From: Myroides sp.
Lineage (GTDB): Bacteria; Bacteroidota; Bacteroidia; Flavobacteriales; Flavobacteriaceae
Direction: 5' to 3'
Assembly: GCA_036643355.1 (NCBI GenBank)
Contig: JAVXSC010000001.1
Location: 62,205 to 126,204, forward strand
Length of the DNA stretch: 64,000 nt
Shown here: in pieces, positions 3,771 to 54,819 of the stretch
Layout: each line of letters opens with the position of its first letter
Numbering within the stretch: the first letter of the stretch is position 1
Made by a program: the position numbers and the translations under genes
The notes under the pieces: generated by a model
Database searches by the model: none
The model's input: the letters and a program-made list of their open reading frames with translations, nothing else
What the model was told of the DNA's origin: nothing

Positions 3771-5089
3771 CTTCTCTTTCGTAGCTTTCCGTTGATTTTA
3801 ATAGGTGCTCTGAGCCATTTGCGTATGAGTTGCATGGTAGCATTGCATTTCACTTTTTGATAGATTAAATTCAGTAATAAACAGTGGTCAACTTCATCAA
3901 AGAAGTTTTTCAGGTCAATATCCACAATGTGGTTTAATCCTGAATGGATGTAATCCCGAGATTGTCCAACGGCTTGTCGGGCATTCTTGTGAGGTCTAAA
4001 TCCATAGCTGTAACTACTAAATTCGGGCTCAAAAAGTGGTGCAATAGTTTGTGCTAAGGCTTGTTGCAACACACGTTCTGTAGTGGTGGGAACACCCAAT
4101 AATCGAGTTTTCCCATTTCCTTTCGGAATTTCAATACCTAAAATGGGTTGTACTTGGTAGTTGCCTTGTTTGATTGCTTCAATCAGTTGTAGTTTCTTTT
4201 CAGAAAACACCTTGCGGAGCTCTCTTATAGAAACACCATCAACACCCGCACTGCCTTTATTGGCAATCACGTGTTCCAATGCTCTTTGAAGATTAAACGG
4301 TTGTACTACTCTAGTTATCATTTTAGTTGTTTTAAACTGTTTTCGTTAAGTAGGGCTACTATACGTTCCCTTACCTATTGAAAACCTCTTTACGTTCAGT
4401 CCTTCCTTGTTTGTGAGACCTATGCAGTTTCTATTTGCACCTCGTTTAACCTCAAGTACTATGACCTCTGCTGACTTCTTGGCTTGATTAACTCGTAACC
4501 ACCAAGACCTCCCCTGGTAAATGCTTTTTCCTTCCGTCTATCGCCGGTACATCTACATAACAATAATCTGATTTAATAGCATGTTCAGAACACTGTTTTG
4601 GACTTCGTATTGCTGTGGATACTCATCCTTATTGCTATGCCTCTTATGTACTTTCTGTTCGTCGGTACAGACTTTTGCAGTTTACCCACCCGCCTGCTGG
4701 CTCATTCGCTAAAAATGTCCACTGGACATTTTCTTTACGCTCTGCCCTCTTCAGTGCATACCTCACGATAAACCACCTTACAGCTTGCTAACGATTCGGG
4801 GTTTCAATCCGCTCGTAAGGGACTTGCACCCTCTGGAAAAATAACACCCCGAAAACTTGGTTCATAAAACTAAATTTGTATTTTTGAACTATTTGAAAAG
4901 CTTTCGGGGTGTGTCCTGCATATGCAGGGCACACACAGGCGTTTGGCTCAATGGCGGGTTAAGTGGTTAATTGAACATTCTACCTCGCATCAACTTTTGT
5001 GGTGTATTGACAGTTTTGTGCTCCGAAATCCGCCACTGCGCCAAGCGCCAAAACGTTAGCTGTAATGCTCCAAAAAAAATGTTCCAAAA

Positions 5090-44564: not shown

Positions 44565-44637
44565 TATATTTGAATTCATAAGTGTTTTTTTTGGTTATAA
44601 AAGAGGTTGCAAGTTTCTTACTTCAACCTCTTTTTTT
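44565..44637 (+). ncRNA. Candidate sRNA unit A
   Basis: -7 box TATATTTG, body TTCATAAGTGTTTT.., GAGGTTG/CAACCTC terminator; body 23/24 identical to 53591-53614. Confidence 0.55.
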
Positions 44638-44906: not shown

Positions 44907-45854
44907 TTAATCTATGGAAACTCCAACCTGCGAAATAAAGTCATTCCAGATTTCCTCAGCTACCTGATTAGCTGAAAAATGTTGATCCCCTTTACTTAAT
45001 CTATTGAATGCTGAAGATGCTTTGGACCAAAACTGATCATATTCACCATTTTCAACATTATAAACCTTGTCCATCTGCATCGAGTTTGAATTAACCTTTT
45101 CTGTAAATGAATAAGTTAAATCTGCAAAGTGGTGTTGACCTTCTTTTAGCATCTTGATCGTAACAAAACAATCTTTATTGTTTGCCCTATTAGAAATTAA
45201 ACAGGTAAAATATTCACTATTATCTGTAATAAAACGAGCCTGAAGATTATCAACAAAATTCAATTCTGTAACAGAAGACCGAAAATAATCTTTTATTTCA
45301 TCGAACCCCTTTTCCTTAAAATTAAATTTATCTACTTCGCTGAAGTATTTTTTTACCTTATAATTTCTAGCTAACTTCTCCTCTGTCGGGATAGTAATAT
45401 TTTCAGCCGTGACCGATGGACCAGTGACTGAAACCAAGCGCCTTAATTCATCTGTTACGTTTAAAAACGCATTATTAGGGTTTGTCCATTCACTTACTGA
45501 CTTACCGTCTTTTGGAAGCGCCTTTAAATTTCCGAAAGGTGTTTTTTGCCAGTCGCAAGGTTCAACAATTATTGGCACAATAATTAGTTTACCATTTTTT
45601 TGCATTTCCTGCGCAGCTTTAAATTCATTATTGTAACAGTAATCTGAATGAATATAATCAGGGCTTAATAAAGCTATAAATAGCTGGGAAGATCCCAATT
45701 CTTTTGCTATGACATTATCAAGGTTTTCCCCTACATGAATTTCTTTATCGGTCCAATCGCTGATCAAGCCCTCCCTTCTAATCTGAGCAAGGTGCACTTT
45801 TAAGCGTTCAAGATAAGTTTGATCTTTGTGACTGTACGAGATAAAAGCCTTCAT
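44907..45854 (-). CDS. TIR domain protein
   Basis: FISYSHKD, LLSPDYIHSDYC..E, IVPII..PCDW, ALP.DGK. Confidence 0.9.
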   Translation of the reverse strand: MKAFISYSHKDQTYLERLKVHLAQIRREGLISDWTDKEIHVGENLDNVIAKELGSSQLFIALLSPDYIHSDYCYNNEFKAAQEMQKNGKLIIVPIIVEPCDWQKTPFGNLKALPKDGKSVSEWTNPNNAFLNVTDELRRLVSVTGPSVTAENITIPTEEKLARNYKVKKYFSEVDKFNFKEKGFDEIKDYFRSSVTELNFVDNLQARFITDNSEYFTCLISNRANNKDCFVTIKMLKEGQHHFADLTYSFTEKVNSNSMQMDKVYNVENGEYDQFWSKASSAFNRLSKGDQHFSANQVAEEIWNDFISQVGVSID

Positions 45855-46369
45855 AATTCGTTATTTTTTTTATTAAGGTTGCTGTATTTTTGATTCGATC
45901 TCTATAGTTACTATTTAGTTTGGCTCCTAATACCTGTCAATCAAACTTATTTATTAACTAAGCCTAAAGATAACGAACTATATGTAAATGACAAGACAAA
46001 ACTGTTGAGTTACAAAAAGAAAATTTTTAATTTAGTTGCTATATATGATTGGAATGACTGAAACATTGGGATATCGATTTTTATTCTGTTATACAGCCGA
46101 AAAATAAAAAAAGCGAGCTATAGCCCGCTTAATAGATACCGCCCCTCCTTTTGTTAGTTCGACTTCTTAATAATTTTGTTTACTAATATTACAAAACAAA
46201 TTAGAATTACCAAACCACCAATCGAATAAAGCCAAACTATTTCAGTTTTTTTGGCGTCACTTTTAGTTAAATTAAAAGCATTGCCTGTACATCAATCTAC
46301 TTACAATCGTTTGGAGTATTGTTTTGTGTAAAATTTTATTTTTCTTTTTTATATTTTTAAATAACTTTT

Positions 46370-46544
46370 TATATTTGAAAACGTGTTTATTAATATTGTA
46401 GTTTTTGCAATTAAGGAGGTGGCTTCGGCAACCTCTTTTTTATTAAAAAAAAATTTGATTTTGTAAATTTTATAATACATTTGAAGTTCATATCAACCTA
46501 TTTAATTGTTTATAAGCATCAACATTATTTGTTGATGCTTTTTT
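46370..46544 (+). ncRNA. Candidate tandem sRNA units B1 and B2
   Basis: Two -7 boxes (46370, 46476), each followed within about 60 nt by a terminator; homologous to 53670-53849. Confidence 0.55.
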
Positions 46545-46737
46545 ATGTGAAAGACATGCCGCTTTTTGTTTTCTTTTTCAAGCTAAACTATTCCAAACTT
46601 CAGCAACTTTAGTACATTTTAAAAATTCCTCAATGATCGATTAAATATATGGATTAACATTTAAAGTGCTACAATACTAAAAAAGATCCCTATCTGAAAT
46701 CAGATTTAGAAAGCACTGGGAATTACTAACTGTTAAA

Positions 46738-48996
46738 TTAGTCATCTTGGCGATCGTGCTCCAAAAGGTGCTGCTTTCTGTCCAGAGAAAATACAAACCA
46801 TACAAAAGCAAACAATCCGATAGCGAAAACCGAATCACCAATAACACGAAGCCATTTGATATTATCCATTCCGGGGCCCTTTAAGAATTCGGCAGAACGG
46901 GCATACCACATACCTTCGTTTACACTGGCGATTGCCTGTAAAACACCCATTGGCAGTAAACTAAGCACCAGCATGAGCATTAGGCCGATGTTGATAGACC
47001 AAAATGCAAAACCAATCAGTTTGTCATTCCATTTCTGAATGCGGTACATACTTCTAAGGGTAAAAAGCATCAGTCCCAGACCAAGCATTCCGTAAACACC
47101 GAACAAGGCACCGTGAGCATGCGCCGAGGTGGTATTCAGTCCTTGGATATAATACAGGGCTAGTGGCGGATTGATTATGAAACCCAATATACCAGCACCG
47201 AAGAAATTCCAAAAGGCAACTGCAACTAGGCAGTATATGGGCCATTTGTAATCCACGAGCCATTTGGTAGCCTTACTAAGGCGGTAGTTTTCATAAGCTT
47301 CATACCCGATAAGTACCAGAGGTACTACTTCCAATGCACTGAATGTGGCGCCGATTGCCATGATCGCCGTTGGCGTTCCACTGAAATACAGATGATGGAA
47401 GGTACCCAGAATACCGCCTGAAAGAAAAATTACTGTTGAAAGAATAACCGTAACCGTAGCCGTTTTTGTACGGAGCAAGCCCAACCTTACAAATAGGAAT
47501 GCCGACACTACTGTTGCAAAAACTTCGAAGAAACCCTCTACCCACAGATGTACGACCCACCACCTCCAGTATTCGGCAATGGCCAGATTGGTCTGGCGGC
47601 CCCACATTAATCCGGCGGCGTAAAATATGGCTATAGCTGCCGATGCTACAAGGAACATTGTAAGCAATCCTTTTTCTGCCGTTCGGTTTCTGATAACGGG
47701 AATTAACGGGCGAAACATCAATGCAAGCCAAACAAATAGCCCTATGCAAAGGAAAATTTGCCAAAACCTTCCAAGGTCAACATATTCATAGCCCTGATGA
47801 CCAAACCAGAAATTAGTTTCGAGACCCAATTTCTGCATTACACCCATCCACTGACCCGCCATAGAACCCAAGACAATAACCAGTATGCATACAAAGAGGA
47901 AATTAACACCCAGTTTTTGATATTTTGGATCTTTGCCGGCAACCGACGGTGCAATATACAGACCTGTTGCCAGCCAGGCAGTCGCGATCCATAAGATGCC
48001 CAGCTGCACATGCCACGTTCTGGTAACGGCATAAGGAAGAATGCTTGAGAGATCGAAACCGTAGAAAGCATCATCCTCTACACCGTAATGGGCTGTTACG
48101 ACACCTGCCGTCACCTGAATAAGTATAAGTATGCTTATTACCCAGATATATTTTTTAATAGCCAACATAGACGGTGTGAGCACCTGCCGCATAAGCGGAT
48201 CTTCGACCGGCATTTCCGGCATATGATCCCTGCGCAGACGGGCGTGATAGAAAACCATTCCCCCCACCCCGATCAAAAGCAGGATGATGCTGACTCCCGT
48301 CCAAATCAACAGGTTGCCGGTAGGTTTGTTGCCAACCAATTCTTCCGGTGGCCAATTGTGCGTGTAGGTTATATTACTGTCCGGGCGCTCTGTTACACAT
48401 GCCCAGGTTGCCCAAAAGAAAAAGCCACTCATCTGACGCATCCGTACACTGTCCTTTATGGCGTTTTTAGGAATCGCGTAATTGTTCCGCAGTTCGTCAA
48501 GATCGGGATTATTCATGAACAGCCCCGCATAATATCCGTTGAGGTGTTCAATCGCGTCGGCCCGTATAGGAGAGACCGTTATTTCGCCACTCTCGTGGTC
48601 ATAAGTGTTTTTACGAAGTTCAAGCTGTAGGCGGCGCTCCAAACCGGCCTGATTCTCACTTGGCAGGGTTTCGTAAGGCATTGCATACTCTGACTGTGAC
48701 CATCGGTTCAAGATATAAAGTGCTTCACGATGAAGCCAGTCGGCAGTCCAGTCAGGAGCAAGATAAGCACCGTGACCCCATACGGAGCCAACTTCCTGTC
48801 CCCCAATACTCTGCCACACATTCTGCCCGTCTTTTATATCCTGACCTTCAAAAACTACCTGCCCGGAAGTAGTAACCACCCGTTGTGGCAAGGGAGGTGC
48901 TTTTTGATAAATTTCGTGACCGTAATACCCCAGAATCCCCAACGATACCGTCGTGATCAGAATAAAGGCAATCCATAGTTTTCTTTCCTGACTCAT
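46738..48996 (-). CDS. norB: Quinol-dependent nitric oxide reductase (qNor)
   Basis: GSVWGHGAYLAPDWTADWLH, WWVVHLWVEGFFEVF, GTFHH, AHAHGALFG. Confidence 0.95.
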   Translation of the reverse strand: MSQERKLWIAFILITTVSLGILGYYGHEIYQKAPPLPQRVVTTSGQVVFEGQDIKDGQNVWQSIGGQEVGSVWGHGAYLAPDWTADWLHREALYILNRWSQSEYAMPYETLPSENQAGLERRLQLELRKNTYDHESGEITVSPIRADAIEHLNGYYAGLFMNNPDLDELRNNYAIPKNAIKDSVRMRQMSGFFFWATWACVTERPDSNITYTHNWPPEELVGNKPTGNLLIWTGVSIILLLIGVGGMVFYHARLRRDHMPEMPVEDPLMRQVLTPSMLAIKKYIWVISILILIQVTAGVVTAHYGVEDDAFYGFDLSSILPYAVTRTWHVQLGILWIATAWLATGLYIAPSVAGKDPKYQKLGVNFLFVCILVIVLGSMAGQWMGVMQKLGLETNFWFGHQGYEYVDLGRFWQIFLCIGLFVWLALMFRPLIPVIRNRTAEKGLLTMFLVASAAIAIFYAAGLMWGRQTNLAIAEYWRWWVVHLWVEGFFEVFATVVSAFLFVRLGLLRTKTATVTVILSTVIFLSGGILGTFHHLYFSGTPTAIMAIGATFSALEVVPLVLIGYEAYENYRLSKATKWLVDYKWPIYCLVAVAFWNFFGAGILGFIINPPLALYYIQGLNTTSAHAHGALFGVYGMLGLGLMLFTLRSMYRIQKWNDKLIGFAFWSINIGLMLMLVLSLLPMGVLQAIASVNEGMWYARSAEFLKGPGMDNIKWLRVIGDSVFAIGLFAFVWFVFSLDRKQHLLEHDRQDD

Positions 48997-51402: not shown

Positions 51403-52281
51403 TTATTTCTTAACTATCTTAGTGTTATATGTACCATCTGCATTGGTGAATGATAAAATATATACACCAGCTACCAAGTTGCTTAGGTTTATATAACCTA
51501 AATTTGTGTTGGTAGATTTAATGATTTTTCCTGAGATATCATATACAGTAACCGTACCTTCAAATTCGGGAAAATTAACAGTACCGGTTGTTGGGTTTGG
51601 GTATATTTTTAAATGATTTAACGAAAAATTCTGCGCAGCTAAAGCTTGTGTTGTTAATTTAATATTGTCTATTGTAAGTACAGACGATATACTTACCTGA
51701 TTAACCGGTGTAACAGTAGGACCATTCATTTTATCCATTAATGTACAATCGAATTCAACTTCTACTGTGTCGGGAAGATCATTTGAAACATAATTTATTA
51801 CGCATGTAAACGGCATATAAGTTTGGGCTGTTGTTAACTGTACAACACCTAAACCTACCAAAACGGCATTACCGGTAGCAGGGTTTAACTTTGTTAACCT
51901 AACGGTTGCTTTTGCAACATCGTCTATGATTACGTTGTCGTCATCATAAACCTGATTGTCTGTGTAGGTATAAAAACCTGTTAAGGAATACGGACGGTAG
52001 TTAATGGGTGCCACCTGTACCGCCATGTCTAAATCGTACGTGTACCATATAGATAACCTAAGAGCGGAATTTCCGTTTTGGGCTGCAGCTACAGGCGGAT
52101 GAAAAAAGTTAATGTACGGGTTATTAGGTATACCATTTACCCTTGTCCAATTTACCGGCCGGTTGGTACCCCAAGTAGTGTTTATTGGATTTACCCAATT
52201 TTCAAAATCTGTATTCTGAAGCTGTGCATATCCAGCTACATGAGTTAACAGCAATGCGCCGAAAAGTATTAAATTTTTCAT
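51403..52281 (-). CDS. T9SS type A sorting domain protein
   Basis: Signal peptide; IYPNPT..YDISGK..L..GVY..KIVKK C-terminal domain. Confidence 0.92.
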   Translation of the reverse strand: MKNLILFGALLLTHVAGYAQLQNTDFENWVNPINTTWGTNRPVNWTRVNGIPNNPYINFFHPPVAAAQNGNSALRLSIWYTYDLDMAVQVAPINYRPYSLTGFYTYTDNQVYDDDNVIIDDVAKATVRLTKLNPATGNAVLVGLGVVQLTTAQTYMPFTCVINYVSNDLPDTVEVEFDCTLMDKMNGPTVTPVNQVSISSVLTIDNIKLTTQALAAQNFSLNHLKIYPNPTTGTVNFPEFEGTVTVYDISGKIIKSTNTNLGYINLSNLVAGVYILSFTNADGTYNTKIVKK

Positions 52282-52355: not shown

Positions 52356-53213
52356 TTAATTATAGATTTGAAGAATTGCTGTCTGAAGTTCTGTTGGTGT
52401 AAGTCCGGTTTTAGACTTAATAAAACCGCTAAAATTTGCCTGACTATCAAAATTAAGCAGGAAAGCAATTTCTTTTAAAGATTGATCGCCAAGTAATAAA
52501 AGTCTGCGGATTTCGAGTATTAATTCTTCATGAATCAACTCGAGCGCGCTTTTACCTAAAGTTGTTCTACACGCTGAATTTAATTTTTCGGAACTGCAAT
52601 TGAGCAGTGTGCAGTATTCAGAAACTTTTTTATGAGAATATATGTAGTGAGGCAACAGCGATAAAAAGCTGGTAATTATCTGTGAACCCTGAACCAATTG
52701 TTGATCAGTATATTGCTCTGATAACGTTATAAGTAAGATTTGCAGGTAACTATATGCTTTATATGTTGCAAGATTGGACAGGTTCTTGTTTTGAAGTAAG
52801 ACCTGCATGTGACCGGCAAGATCATACAGGTGATTAAACGTTTCTTTTGGAAGATTAAAAGCTGAATTTGGAAAGTATAAACGATAATGCTTTAGTGGAG
52901 TTATAAATTCGAAAATATTTTTTCGGAACTGAATAATAATACCCTTAGCGCTATCGCGCTGCATCAGATGTATCTGTCCAGGATAAATCATAAATAGCTG
53001 ACCAGCCTCCATTTGGTATGTGTTAAAGTCAATCTGTTGTTTTCCATGACCTTTAGATACAAATATAATTTCAAAGTAATCGTGTCTGTGCGGATGCTGA
53101 AAATCATACGGATTGGTATAGTCAAGCGACTCTATCATCAGGAGTTTATTTGGGTTTGGCAATGAAACCGGTAATATGTGCTTACTATTAGAATCCATAT
53201 TGCTAAAATACAT
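52356..53213 (-). CDS. AraC family regulator
   Basis: HPHRHDYFEI cupin N-terminus, SLKEIAFLLNF. Confidence 0.92.
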   Translation of the reverse strand: MYFSNMDSNSKHILPVSLPNPNKLLMIESLDYTNPYDFQHPHRHDYFEIIFVSKGHGKQQIDFNTYQMEAGQLFMIYPGQIHLMQRDSAKGIIIQFRKNIFEFITPLKHYRLYFPNSAFNLPKETFNHLYDLAGHMQVLLQNKNLSNLATYKAYSYLQILLITLSEQYTDQQLVQGSQIITSFLSLLPHYIYSHKKVSEYCTLLNCSSEKLNSACRTTLGKSALELIHEELILEIRRLLLLGDQSLKEIAFLLNFDSQANFSGFIKSKTGLTPTELQTAILQIYN

Positions 53214-53483: not shown

Positions 53484-53935
53484 TATTTTTGAAAAAGCGT
53501 TCATTTAAATATAGTTTTTTTTCTGAAAAAGAGGTTGTTTAGTTTAATACTACAACCTCTTTTTTTATTTAACTATTTTATAAATATATCATTCATAAGT
53601 GTTTTATTTGGTTAAGAAAAAGCAGCTGTTTTAATTTTTAGACAGTTGCTTTTGATATTTAAAAAATATTACATTTGAAAAATATCCACATTAAGATTGC
53701 ATTGAAGTTAAGTATTGAGGTTGTTTCTGCAACCTCTTTTTTATTAAAAACAATTTGATGTTGTGGTTTCTTAATTATACATTTTAAATTCATATCTACC
53801 TATTAATTATTTAAAAGCATCTGTCTTTATTTACAGGTGCTTTTATTTTCTAAAATAATTTTTTAATTTTGACTCCGCAAAAATTTAGTTGTTTTATAGA
53901 AGAAGCGGTTGCGAGCTTATACGTAACCGCTTCTT
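53484..53935 (+). ncRNA. Candidate array of five tandem sRNA units C1-C5
   Basis: Five terminator-like hairpins about 90-100 bp apart; -7 boxes at 53484, 53670, 53778 (degenerate) and 53864; no ORF. Confidence 0.6.
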
Positions 53936-54519
53936 AGTTCTTTAAAGTTATTCACCCAACCAAGTAGAAACTTTTTCCTGTGCGCGGGTTTTGTTTACAA
54001 TGTTCACGTAATAACTTCGCATTCTGAATAACAGACTTTCATTTATTAATTTGATCGGCAATTGATTATTTAGAACTGCATAAGTATTACTATGAAATGC
54101 GCAGTAAACAGATGGAACTTGAAGAACTACAGTAACTAGCTGAAAAAATGATAATTTAAAATAATTTAAAGAATATAGCCTCTCTACTACTTTATTACAG
54201 TGATTTACAGCAATCATCTCCCTAAGTTTCTTCAATGAATCACTTCTTTATACCATTTTACACATTGTAAGTTAAGTATATACAGTTATTCGACATAGTG
54301 AATGGTTTGTAGGTCTATTAAGGAACCCTTAGAAAAAATGAAGTAAAAACTTTTAGAAGAAACTTTAATAAAGAAAAAAGAAACAGACAGAATTTTATAC
54401 GAAGCCGATTATAGCATCATAATTTAAACGGCAAACAAAATTAGACCTAATGCTATAAAATCCTACTGGCGAAGCAACAGGATTTATAAGAATATAATAT
54501 AACTAATACGAGCAGTTTA

Positions 54520-54819
54520 TTATGCGTTCAACAATATAAATCCCGTATGTTCCATTCCTGATCCATCAAAATATGAATAAACCATTTTAATACGGGACCC
54601 GACAAAGTTTGTACGAAACTCACCAACCTCATCAAATCCAGCATTGGTTCCCGCCGTATAAATATCTTTAAAATAAATTTTTGTATTTAATCCGGATTTG
54701 ATAATTTGAACGTGGTTAAAAAAACTTTCCAAACAGACCCCCAGTTCCTTCAACTTTTCTATAATCTCTGATGATTCCCCCTTGCTTAAATAAATCTTTA
54801 ATGCGTTTTCCAGTGCCAT
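54520..54819 (-). CDS. Hypothetical protein
   Basis: 99-aa ORF in an AT-rich region; no family recognised. Confidence 0.55.
   Translation of the reverse strand: MALENALKIYLSKGESSEIIEKLKELGVCLESFFNHVQIIKSGLNTKIYFKDIYTAGTNAGFDEVGEFRTNFVGSRIKMVYSYFDGSGMEHTGFILLNA

What the first reader, a model, noticed from the sequence alone, without database searches (positions are those of the whole stretch)
53484..53935. Tandem array of five tiny promoter-terminator units: candidate anti-start-codon sRNA array
Seen: in 450 bp with no ORF, five hairpins recur about every 90-100 bp (ending near 53566, 53654, 53742, 53844, 53935), the first four with T tails. C1, C3 and C5 follow a TAnnTTTG box, C4 a one-mismatch box, and C2 has no clear box. 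Each predicted RNA is about 55-75 nt: a U-rich single-stranded 5' part plus terminator. Five of the eight such units in the window (A, B2, C1, C2, C4) have TTCAT at or near the 5' end followed by U-rich sequence; C2 is the exact complement of AACCAAATAAAACACTTATGAA. Established: Bacteroidota translation starts are A-rich and largely SD-independent. Inference: a modular bank of trans-acting sRNAs, each pairing across AUG and the upstream A-rich leader of target mRNAs. I found no exact target inside this window.
Basis: partly seen in the sequence, partly recalled or inferred. Interest (0 to 1): 0.85.

Follow-up and report, generated by a model that had tools for sequence, protein, structure and literature searches.

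The report
FopS-like anti-start-codon small RNA array
Five tiny promoter-plus-terminator units sit head to tail in a Paenimyroides-like flavobacterium; one belongs to a multicopy RNA family, not found in Rfam or our paper searches, that likely dampens translation by pairing over start codons, while the other four look like copies whose targeting part has been rewritten and whose function is untested.

Summary
The array is real: five same-strand hairpins about 90 nt apart, the only five-unit cluster in this assembly. Unit C2 carries a 22-nt U-rich seed (TCATAAGTGTTTTTTTTGGTTA type) found in 10 strong copies in this genome and in 60 loci of the Paenimyroides clade. There it usually follows a TAnnTTTG promoter (34 of 56 distinct units) and precedes one of 21 stem types with G·U-biased pairs. 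The layout and the UUCAU…GGUUA frame match the Bacteroides FopS sRNAs, which block start codons, but the FopS model (RF04319) does not hit, and an RbpB-type protein is missing here. C2 pairs with start regions better than controls; its enrichment for exported-protein targets (24 of 50) did not replicate in a relative. C1, C3 and C4 reuse the family's promoter or hairpin with new 5' sequence; C5's hairpin is unrelated. None of the four pairs with start regions clearly better than shuffles. C2 itself has lost its promoter box. Verdict: a new FopS-like multicopy sRNA family plus a local duplication array; the 'modular bank of five targeting RNAs' is possible but unproven. No transcript data.

The parts
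53484..53566 (+). C1: TATTTTTG box 53484-53491, predicted +1 at 53496, new 5' sequence containing TTCAT, family-type GAGGTTG/CAACCTC terminator 53531-53559 plus U tail
   Evidence: +1 inferred from the -12..-5 box position in PMC9723704
53581..53655 (+). C2: decayed box TAAATATA 53581-53588, family seed 53593-53614 (one mismatch to the family), GCAGCTGT/ACAGTTGC terminator 53622-53649
   Evidence: (model R1, 40.7 bits; R1 was built with this copy)
53670..53742 (+). C3: TACATTTG box, unrelated 5' body, short GAGGTTG/CAACCTC terminator 53717-53736
53778..53846 (+). C4: TACATTTT box, TCATA at predicted +1 (53790), rewritten seed, family-type GCATCTGT/ACAGGTGC terminator 53817-53840
53864..53938 (+). 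C5: TAATTTTG box, U-rich body, strong hairpin 53900-53935 with weak U tail; no homologue found
46370..46544 (+). Paralogous two-unit block: B1 (C1-like promoter, C3-like hairpin) and B2 (C4 seed kept, stem changed by compensatory substitutions)
44565..44637 (+). Copy A: canonical family member with TATATTTG box, full seed and terminator
52356..53213 (-). Divergent AraC-family regulator gene (context)
54520..54819 (-). Convergent ~100-aa gene of unknown family (context); its homologues often lie near family copies

Best explanation
This is likely a locally duplicated cluster of short sRNA genes derived from a Paenimyroides-clade multicopy family whose U-rich 5' seed is predicted to pair across AUG and the A-rich leader and so repress translation of many mRNAs, as FopS does in Bacteroides. 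Shown: the promoter-seed-terminator anatomy, the family's copy number and clade restriction, a fixed seed on interchangeable hairpins, and the shared ancestry of C1-C4 with the family. Inferred: housekeeping-sigma transcription of 55-70 nt RNAs starting at or next to UCAU; UCAU pairs with AUGA, the U run with the A-rich -8 to -15 zone, and GGUUA with an upstream UAACC-like stretch; low-specificity damping of many genes, perhaps weighted to exported proteins. In the array, C2 keeps the seed but has lost its promoter box, so it would be weak, silent or made by read-through. C4 and B2 carry a second seed that may be under selection. C1, C3 and C5 have no demonstrated targeting role.
For: Exact-seed scan: 60 of 75 genome loci are from Paenimyroides, Flavobacterium, Myroides, Avrilella or Flavobacteriaceae records; 58 of those 60 fold at -12 kcal/mol or better just after the seed, against 1 of 15 in other taxa. 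In 56 distinct units: 21 stem types, strict box 3-6 nt upstream in 34 (control window 7), G·U 34 against A·C 4. Compensatory pairs: 8 of 15 and 4 of 10 in two hand-picked subfamily alignments. Opposite-strand ORFs from the seed's ATG are only 3-42 codons in the clade, but 5 of 15 hits in other taxa start ORFs of 290 aa or more, so the seed's complement is a natural Bacteroidota start region. C2 reaches -12 kcal/mol or better at 242 of 2370 starts, against 132 of 2076 internal AUGs and 76 of 2370 upstream windows. Top-50 targets: 24 exported against 12.2 ± 3.4 for shuffles, 0 of 259 as extreme; C2 23 of 50, 0 of 30; 5 of 39 T9SS-type genes in the top 50. One loose pattern (box, TTCATA, GGTTA) recovers both this family and true FopS. 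FopS mechanism: PMC11697453.
Against: The exported-target enrichment did not replicate in 800 kb of carrier G043 (9 of top 30 against 7.8; 77 of 200 shuffles as extreme) and was not significant in non-carrier G020. Mean pairing energy over all starts is not beyond shuffles (35 of 259). TAACC is not enriched before exported genes, and the shift among ATGAA genes is not significant (p = 0.20); 0 of 11 TonB-receptor-like genes are in the top 200. C1, C3, C4, B1 and B2 do not beat shuffles. No RRM_1 protein in G000 (79% complete) or in 4 of 5 relatives. Seed invariance is partly built in by the search pattern, the G·U count is biased by a finder that accepts G·T, and the copies are related. Gene starts and export classes come from my own heuristic scripts, which missed at least two window genes. 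No raw RNA reads.
Confidence: 0.6

Rival explanations
1. The family is a real sRNA, but this array is a birth-and-death graveyard: tandem duplicates whose seeds or promoters are decaying, with at most a terminator or insulator role.
For: C2 has lost its box. C1, C3 and C4 seeds fail the shuffle test. The C4 seed was not found in 10 clade genomes. A seed-deleted copy ends the second array on G000 C24. The other known copies of the array are about 98% identical strains.
Against: All five hairpins are intact and three boxes are perfect. B2 and C4 keep the new seed (two substitutions, one gap) while three stem pairs changed on both sides.
Confidence: 0.2
2. The conserved U-rich 5' end is a protein or ribosome-binding decoy rather than an antisense seed; its CUCAUAA/UUCAUAA start also resembles the initiator-tRNA anticodon loop (recalled, not tested).
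For: A near-invariant 22-mer with no strongly conserved perfect target; target enrichment not replicated. FopS 5' ends bind RbpB (PMC11697453).
Against: The CAU lies in an open 5' end, not a stem-loop. The seed's register fits the measured start-region profile, with the A peak at -11 to -13 and U at -1/-2. No RRM protein in 5 of 6 genomes tested.
Confidence: 0.1
3. The RNAs are antitoxins or dedicated regulators of the neighbouring ~100-aa gene.
For: 6 of 8 loci holding a homologue of window 54520-54819 have a family copy within the 3-kb locus.
Against: No overlap with the gene, orientation varies, its start region pairs poorly by eye, most copies have other neighbours, and the protein has no family match.
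Confidence: 0.05
4. The repeat is a DNA element (dif-like or attachment site, REP-like palindrome), or a small ORF on the opposite strand.
For: Copies often sit in variable regions, one beside a probable transposase (label recalled). CATAA plus a 6-nt spacer loosely recalls a dif site (recalled).
Against: The T run varies between 7 and 8, stems differ in sequence but keep pairing with G·U bias on one strand, the promoter is in fixed register, and reverse ORFs are unconserved at 3-42 aa.
Confidence: 0.05

Closest known systems
FopS, Rfam RF04319 (Bacteroides family of paralogous sRNAs; PMC11697453)
   Same: About 70 nt, single-stranded 5' seed plus intrinsic terminator, TAnnTTTG box ending 4 nt before +1, multicopy, UUUCAU…GU…GGUUA frame predicted to cover AUG and leader.
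   Different: No covariance-model hit; the middle of the seed differs (AAGUG-U7/8 against AGUAUUAGAUUUAA); restricted to the Paenimyroides clade of Flavobacteriaceae; RRM protein mostly absent; no susC-like target signal; tandem arrays with rewritten seeds were not described in the sections read.
GibS, RF04182 (PMC7366714)
   Same: Longer relative of FopS that represses at start codons; the core copy here beside a probable trmH/SpoU gene is likewise a longer form with about 50 extra 5' nt.
   Different: Best GibS score in the array is 18.8 bits against a gathering score of 115; GibS uses a different promoter motif.
Tandem dCas12f guide RNAs of Paenimyroides ummariense (PMC13472631)
   Same: Tandem short RNAs of 85-105 nt in the same clade.
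   Different: Those follow dcas12f and share a scaffold; here the neighbours are an AraC gene and an unknown small ORF, and units carry their own boxes and terminators.
Sibling sRNAs such as OmrA/B, Qrr, LhrC1-7 (as listed in the PMC11697453 discussion)
   Same: Paralogous trans-acting sRNAs.
   Different: Those share seeds; this array mixes at least four different 5' sequences on related promoter and terminator parts.

Membership tests
FopS (RF04319) | Covariance-model hit at or above 56 bits | tested here: not met
   No FopS hit at E up to 10 in 5 family loci or the array; 3 of 3 FopS-type control loci scored 61-81 bits
FopS (RF04319) | Housekeeping TAnnTTTG promoter just upstream | tested here: met
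   34 of 56 family units, 22 at exactly 4 nt; 3 of 5 array units strict, C2 decayed
FopS (RF04319) | Open 5' seed plus intrinsic terminator | tested here: met
FopS (RF04319) | Multicopy (12-15 per genome) | tested here: met
   11 matches in G000 and 12, 6 and 4 in three relatives; the range is wider than for FopS
FopS (RF04319) | R1/R1' seed sequence | tested here: inconclusive
   Ends shared, middle different; homology or convergence on the same start-region consensus cannot be separated
FopS (RF04319) | Partner RbpB (RRM-1 protein) | tested here: not met
   PF00076 absent from G000 (79% complete) and from 4 of 5 relatives; binding itself not testable
FopS (RF04319) | Targets susC-type start regions | tested here: not met
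   0 of 11 heuristic TonB-receptor-like genes in the top 200 predicted targets; small n
FopS (RF04319) | Expressed short RNA that represses translation | not testable with these tools
   Only assembled contigs were available
dCas12f tandem guide-RNA array | Adjacent dcas12f/rpoE genes and a shared scaffold | tested here: not met
   Neighbours are AraC, a T9SS cargo gene and an unknown ORF; no shared scaffold
Type I toxin-antitoxin | Antisense overlap with, or long complementarity to, a small toxin gene | tested here: not met
   No overlapping ORF; no in-window complement

The most novel reading that the evidence does not exclude
Paenimyroides islands carry sRNA 'cartridge' arrays: a reusable promoter-terminator chassis is duplicated head to tail and loaded with new 5' seeds, giving several independent anti-translation RNAs in 450 bp. 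The FopS-type anti-AUG design would then be a phylum-wide answer to regulating mRNAs that lack Shine-Dalgarno sequences.
Probability: 0.2. Interest if true: 0.78.

Novelty: new variant of a known kind. Interest (0 to 1): 0.52.

Why it matters
Trans-acting sRNAs of Flavobacteriaceae are barely characterised, and FopS was reported as a Bacteroidaceae family. A second multicopy family with the same anti-AUG frame, mostly without RbpB, would show how Shine-Dalgarno-independent translation is repressed across the phylum. The array is a snapshot of sRNA birth by duplication and seed replacement (C4 against its parent type), which can be tested directly in culturable Paenimyroides species.

Tried and rejected
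Rfam at gathering threshold over the window gave only two group II intron pieces; no tRNA. The sigma-70 scan is uninformative here (12 found, 12.8 expected). A blast-type search of 40 relatives gave only chance-level hits and the seed was in 0 of 40. Model R1 has no base pairs because the stems do not align, so it scores sequence only; 3 of 150 genus genomes hit strongly and 5 weak single hits were not family members on inspection. The loose anti-AUG pattern matched 73 of 300 family and 50 of 400 phylum genomes, at about control level; most fetched matches were real gene starts without a terminator. The C4/B2 seed: none in 10 clade genomes, 2 near-identical arrays in metagenomes, 1 hairpin-less viral match. 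Plasmid and phage collections: one 43-nt chance hit and none. The locus of the core copy holds the RNA in 2 of 30 genus loci. RNA runs: two RNA-on-record runs each had one 213-228 nt contig over C4-C5 and little or nothing else in 20 kb; they were chosen for holding this stretch, are contigs at depth 2-5, and run through terminators, so I draw nothing from them. In one search the seed of copy A was cut two bases short; one search used the full seed. A scan for arrays in the sampled G043 and G020 DNA did not run, so array frequency in relatives is known only from seed-centred loci. Four look-ups of earlier findings returned nothing.

Full report
Observation. The region 53484-53935 holds five + strand hairpins at about 90-nt spacing with no ORF. 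Each predicted unit folds as an open 5' stretch plus a terminator-like stem (z -2.4 to -6.6). C1, C3 and C5 have perfect TAnnTTTG boxes, C4 one mismatch, C2 two. In Flavobacterium psychrophilum this box sits at -12 to -5 (PMC9723704, passages), which puts +1 at 53496, 53593, 53682, 53790 and 53876. A box before a terminator is common by chance in this AT-rich genome (68 of 1663, controls 52 and 60). A run of five is unique among 42 terminator clusters.

The family behind C2. C2's 5' sequence recurs exactly 7 times elsewhere in G000; a sequence-only model finds 10 strong copies and one decayed copy (the model was built from such copies). It was absent from 40 sampled relatives and strong in only 3 of 150 genus genomes. 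An exact scan of the species collection gave 75 loci, 60 from records titled Paenimyroides, Flavobacterium, Myroides, Avrilella or Flavobacteriaceae. Of those 60, 58 fold at -12 kcal/mol or better right after the seed; one is cut by a contig end and one is weaker. Only 1 of the other 15 does, and 5 of those 15 are instead the start of an opposite-strand ORF of 290 aa or more. Three of 5 viral-collection hits have box and hairpin. Across 56 distinct units there are 21 stem types, a strict box 3-6 nt upstream in 34 (control 7), and 34 G·U against 4 A·C pairs. Subfamily alignments show compensatory changes in 8 of 15 and 4 of 10 pairs. Caveats: the pattern fixes the seed, my finder accepts G·T, and the copies are kin. 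Even so, one seed on unrelated stems in fixed promoter register is what a seed-driven sRNA looks like, and is hard to explain as a DNA repeat or a peptide gene (reverse ORFs 3-42 aa).

How the array relates to it. C4 aligns with a canonical copy in promoter, TCATA start and nearly the whole hairpin, but the seed middle is replaced. B2, 7 kb away, keeps C4's new seed while its stem changed on both sides. C1 and C3 use the family's other common stem; B1 joins a C1-like promoter to a C3-like hairpin. C5 has no relative. So the array arose by duplication and part-swapping (inference). A second array of three to four units occurs on G000 C24 and twice in P. baculatum, 88-95% alike, ending in a family copy that is seed-deleted in G000. 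The five-unit array itself was found only in two near-identical metagenome contigs with the same AraC neighbour.

Targets. I called about 2360 gene starts with my own script; it missed at least two window genes, and export classes are heuristic. C2 pairs at -12 kcal/mol or better with 242 of 2370 starts against 132 of 2076 internal AUGs; C1, C3, C4, B1 and B2 score lower at starts than at internal AUGs, and C5 about equal. With TTCAT held fixed and the rest shuffled, the family seed's top 50 targets hold 24 exported proteins against 12.2 ± 3.4 (0 of 259), and its top-50 energy is beaten by 8 of 259. C2 repeats this (23 of 50, 0 of 30); the other units do not, C5 being borderline (2 of 30 and 1 of 30). 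Against this reading: no replication in 701 genes of carrier G043 and no significance in 623 genes of non-carrier G020; no TAACC enrichment before exported genes; no mean shift among ATGAA genes; 0 of 11 TonB-receptor-like genes in the top 200. Three genes from G000's top 50 have homologues with seed-like starts in relatives, from a pattern biased to MK starts. The fair reading is a seed that mirrors the general start-region consensus (A-rich -11 to -13, U at -1/-2, AUGAA, in line with the abstract of PMC6847099 and a passage of PMC7366714), with target preference unresolved.

Comparison with known systems. FopS RNAs are 12-15-copy Bacteroidaceae sRNAs with an open 5' seed and terminator that bind susC start regions, block translation and bind RbpB (PMC11697453: abstract, passages, sections 8, 12, 14 and 28, oligonucleotide rows of supplementary file 4; figures not seen). 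A loose box-TTCATA-GGTTA pattern retrieves both this family and loci that Rfam scores as FopS. But RF04319 does not hit our loci even at E 10, the seed middle differs, and RRM_1 is absent from G000 and 4 of 5 relatives. It therefore likely works like FopS but is not filed as FopS. Tandem dCas12f guides of P. ummariense (PMC13472631, passages) differ in context. Eight literature searches showed no description of this family or array; the library lacks most subscription papers, and I did not read the sRNA tables in the supplement of PMC9723704.

Verdict. Observation confirmed, interpretation partly supported. The solid result is an apparently undescribed, clade-restricted, FopS-like multicopy sRNA family, with an array that records duplication and seed replacement. 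Expression, repression and any role of C1, C3, C4 and C5 are untested. New variant of a known kind; interest 0.52.

Noticed in passing
L024, L027, L035, L044, L058, L060, L093, L103; G000 C132 near 1635: A palindrome of the CTTAATCTAGATTAAG type; its right part TA(G/C)ATTAAG starts 43-44 nt before the seed in 8 of 56 units and also precedes a different promoter-terminator unit on C132: a likely shared transcription-factor site. C3's 5' end holds a half-site look-alike.
   Followed up: partly
L025 / L389 / L390 (G000 C42:5127-5260, minus strand): A longer core copy, about 110 nt, with its box about 50 nt further upstream, convergent with a probable trmH/SpoU gene (label recalled); seen at this locus in 2 of 30 genus loci, probably the ancestral copy.
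   Followed up: partly
L217, L219, L226, L433-L442: A different conserved unit in other Flavobacteriaceae (core ATACCATAGCATAAGTAGGTTA behind a TAnnTTTG box, then a terminator) in 13 of 120 genomes, often as two nearby copies; in L441 it is followed by ~120-bp tandem repeats. No Rfam hit in L217 or L219.
   Followed up: partly
L240, L242, L243 and G762: FopS-type sequences occur in four genomes with four different family codes; three were confirmed by RF04319, so FopS reaches beyond one family.
   Followed up: partly
window 54520-54819; L419-L426: Small gene of unknown family; 6 of 8 loci with a homologue have a family RNA copy within the locus.
   Followed up: partly
G000 C24:14994-15330; L034, L072: Second promoter-terminator array of three to four units shared with P. 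baculatum, including a conserved unit with an unrelated 5' body.
   Followed up: partly
L235, L248: Single box-TTCATA-GGTTA-terminator units in other Bacteroidota with no Rfam hit: further candidate anti-AUG sRNAs.
   Followed up: no
window 4399-4715 (minus strand): Two group II intron fragments, RF01998 and RF02001.
   Followed up: no
window 44907-48996: A 315-aa ORF that looks like a TIR-domain protein (recalled, not scanned) lies between copy A and block B, next to a nitric-oxide reductase gene. The window is 36.7% GC against 34.0% for the genome, consistent with an island.
   Followed up: no
window 51403-52281; L177, L178: The T9SS cargo gene beside AraC differs visibly in its N-terminal part between strains while the array region stays about 98% identical.
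   Followed up: no
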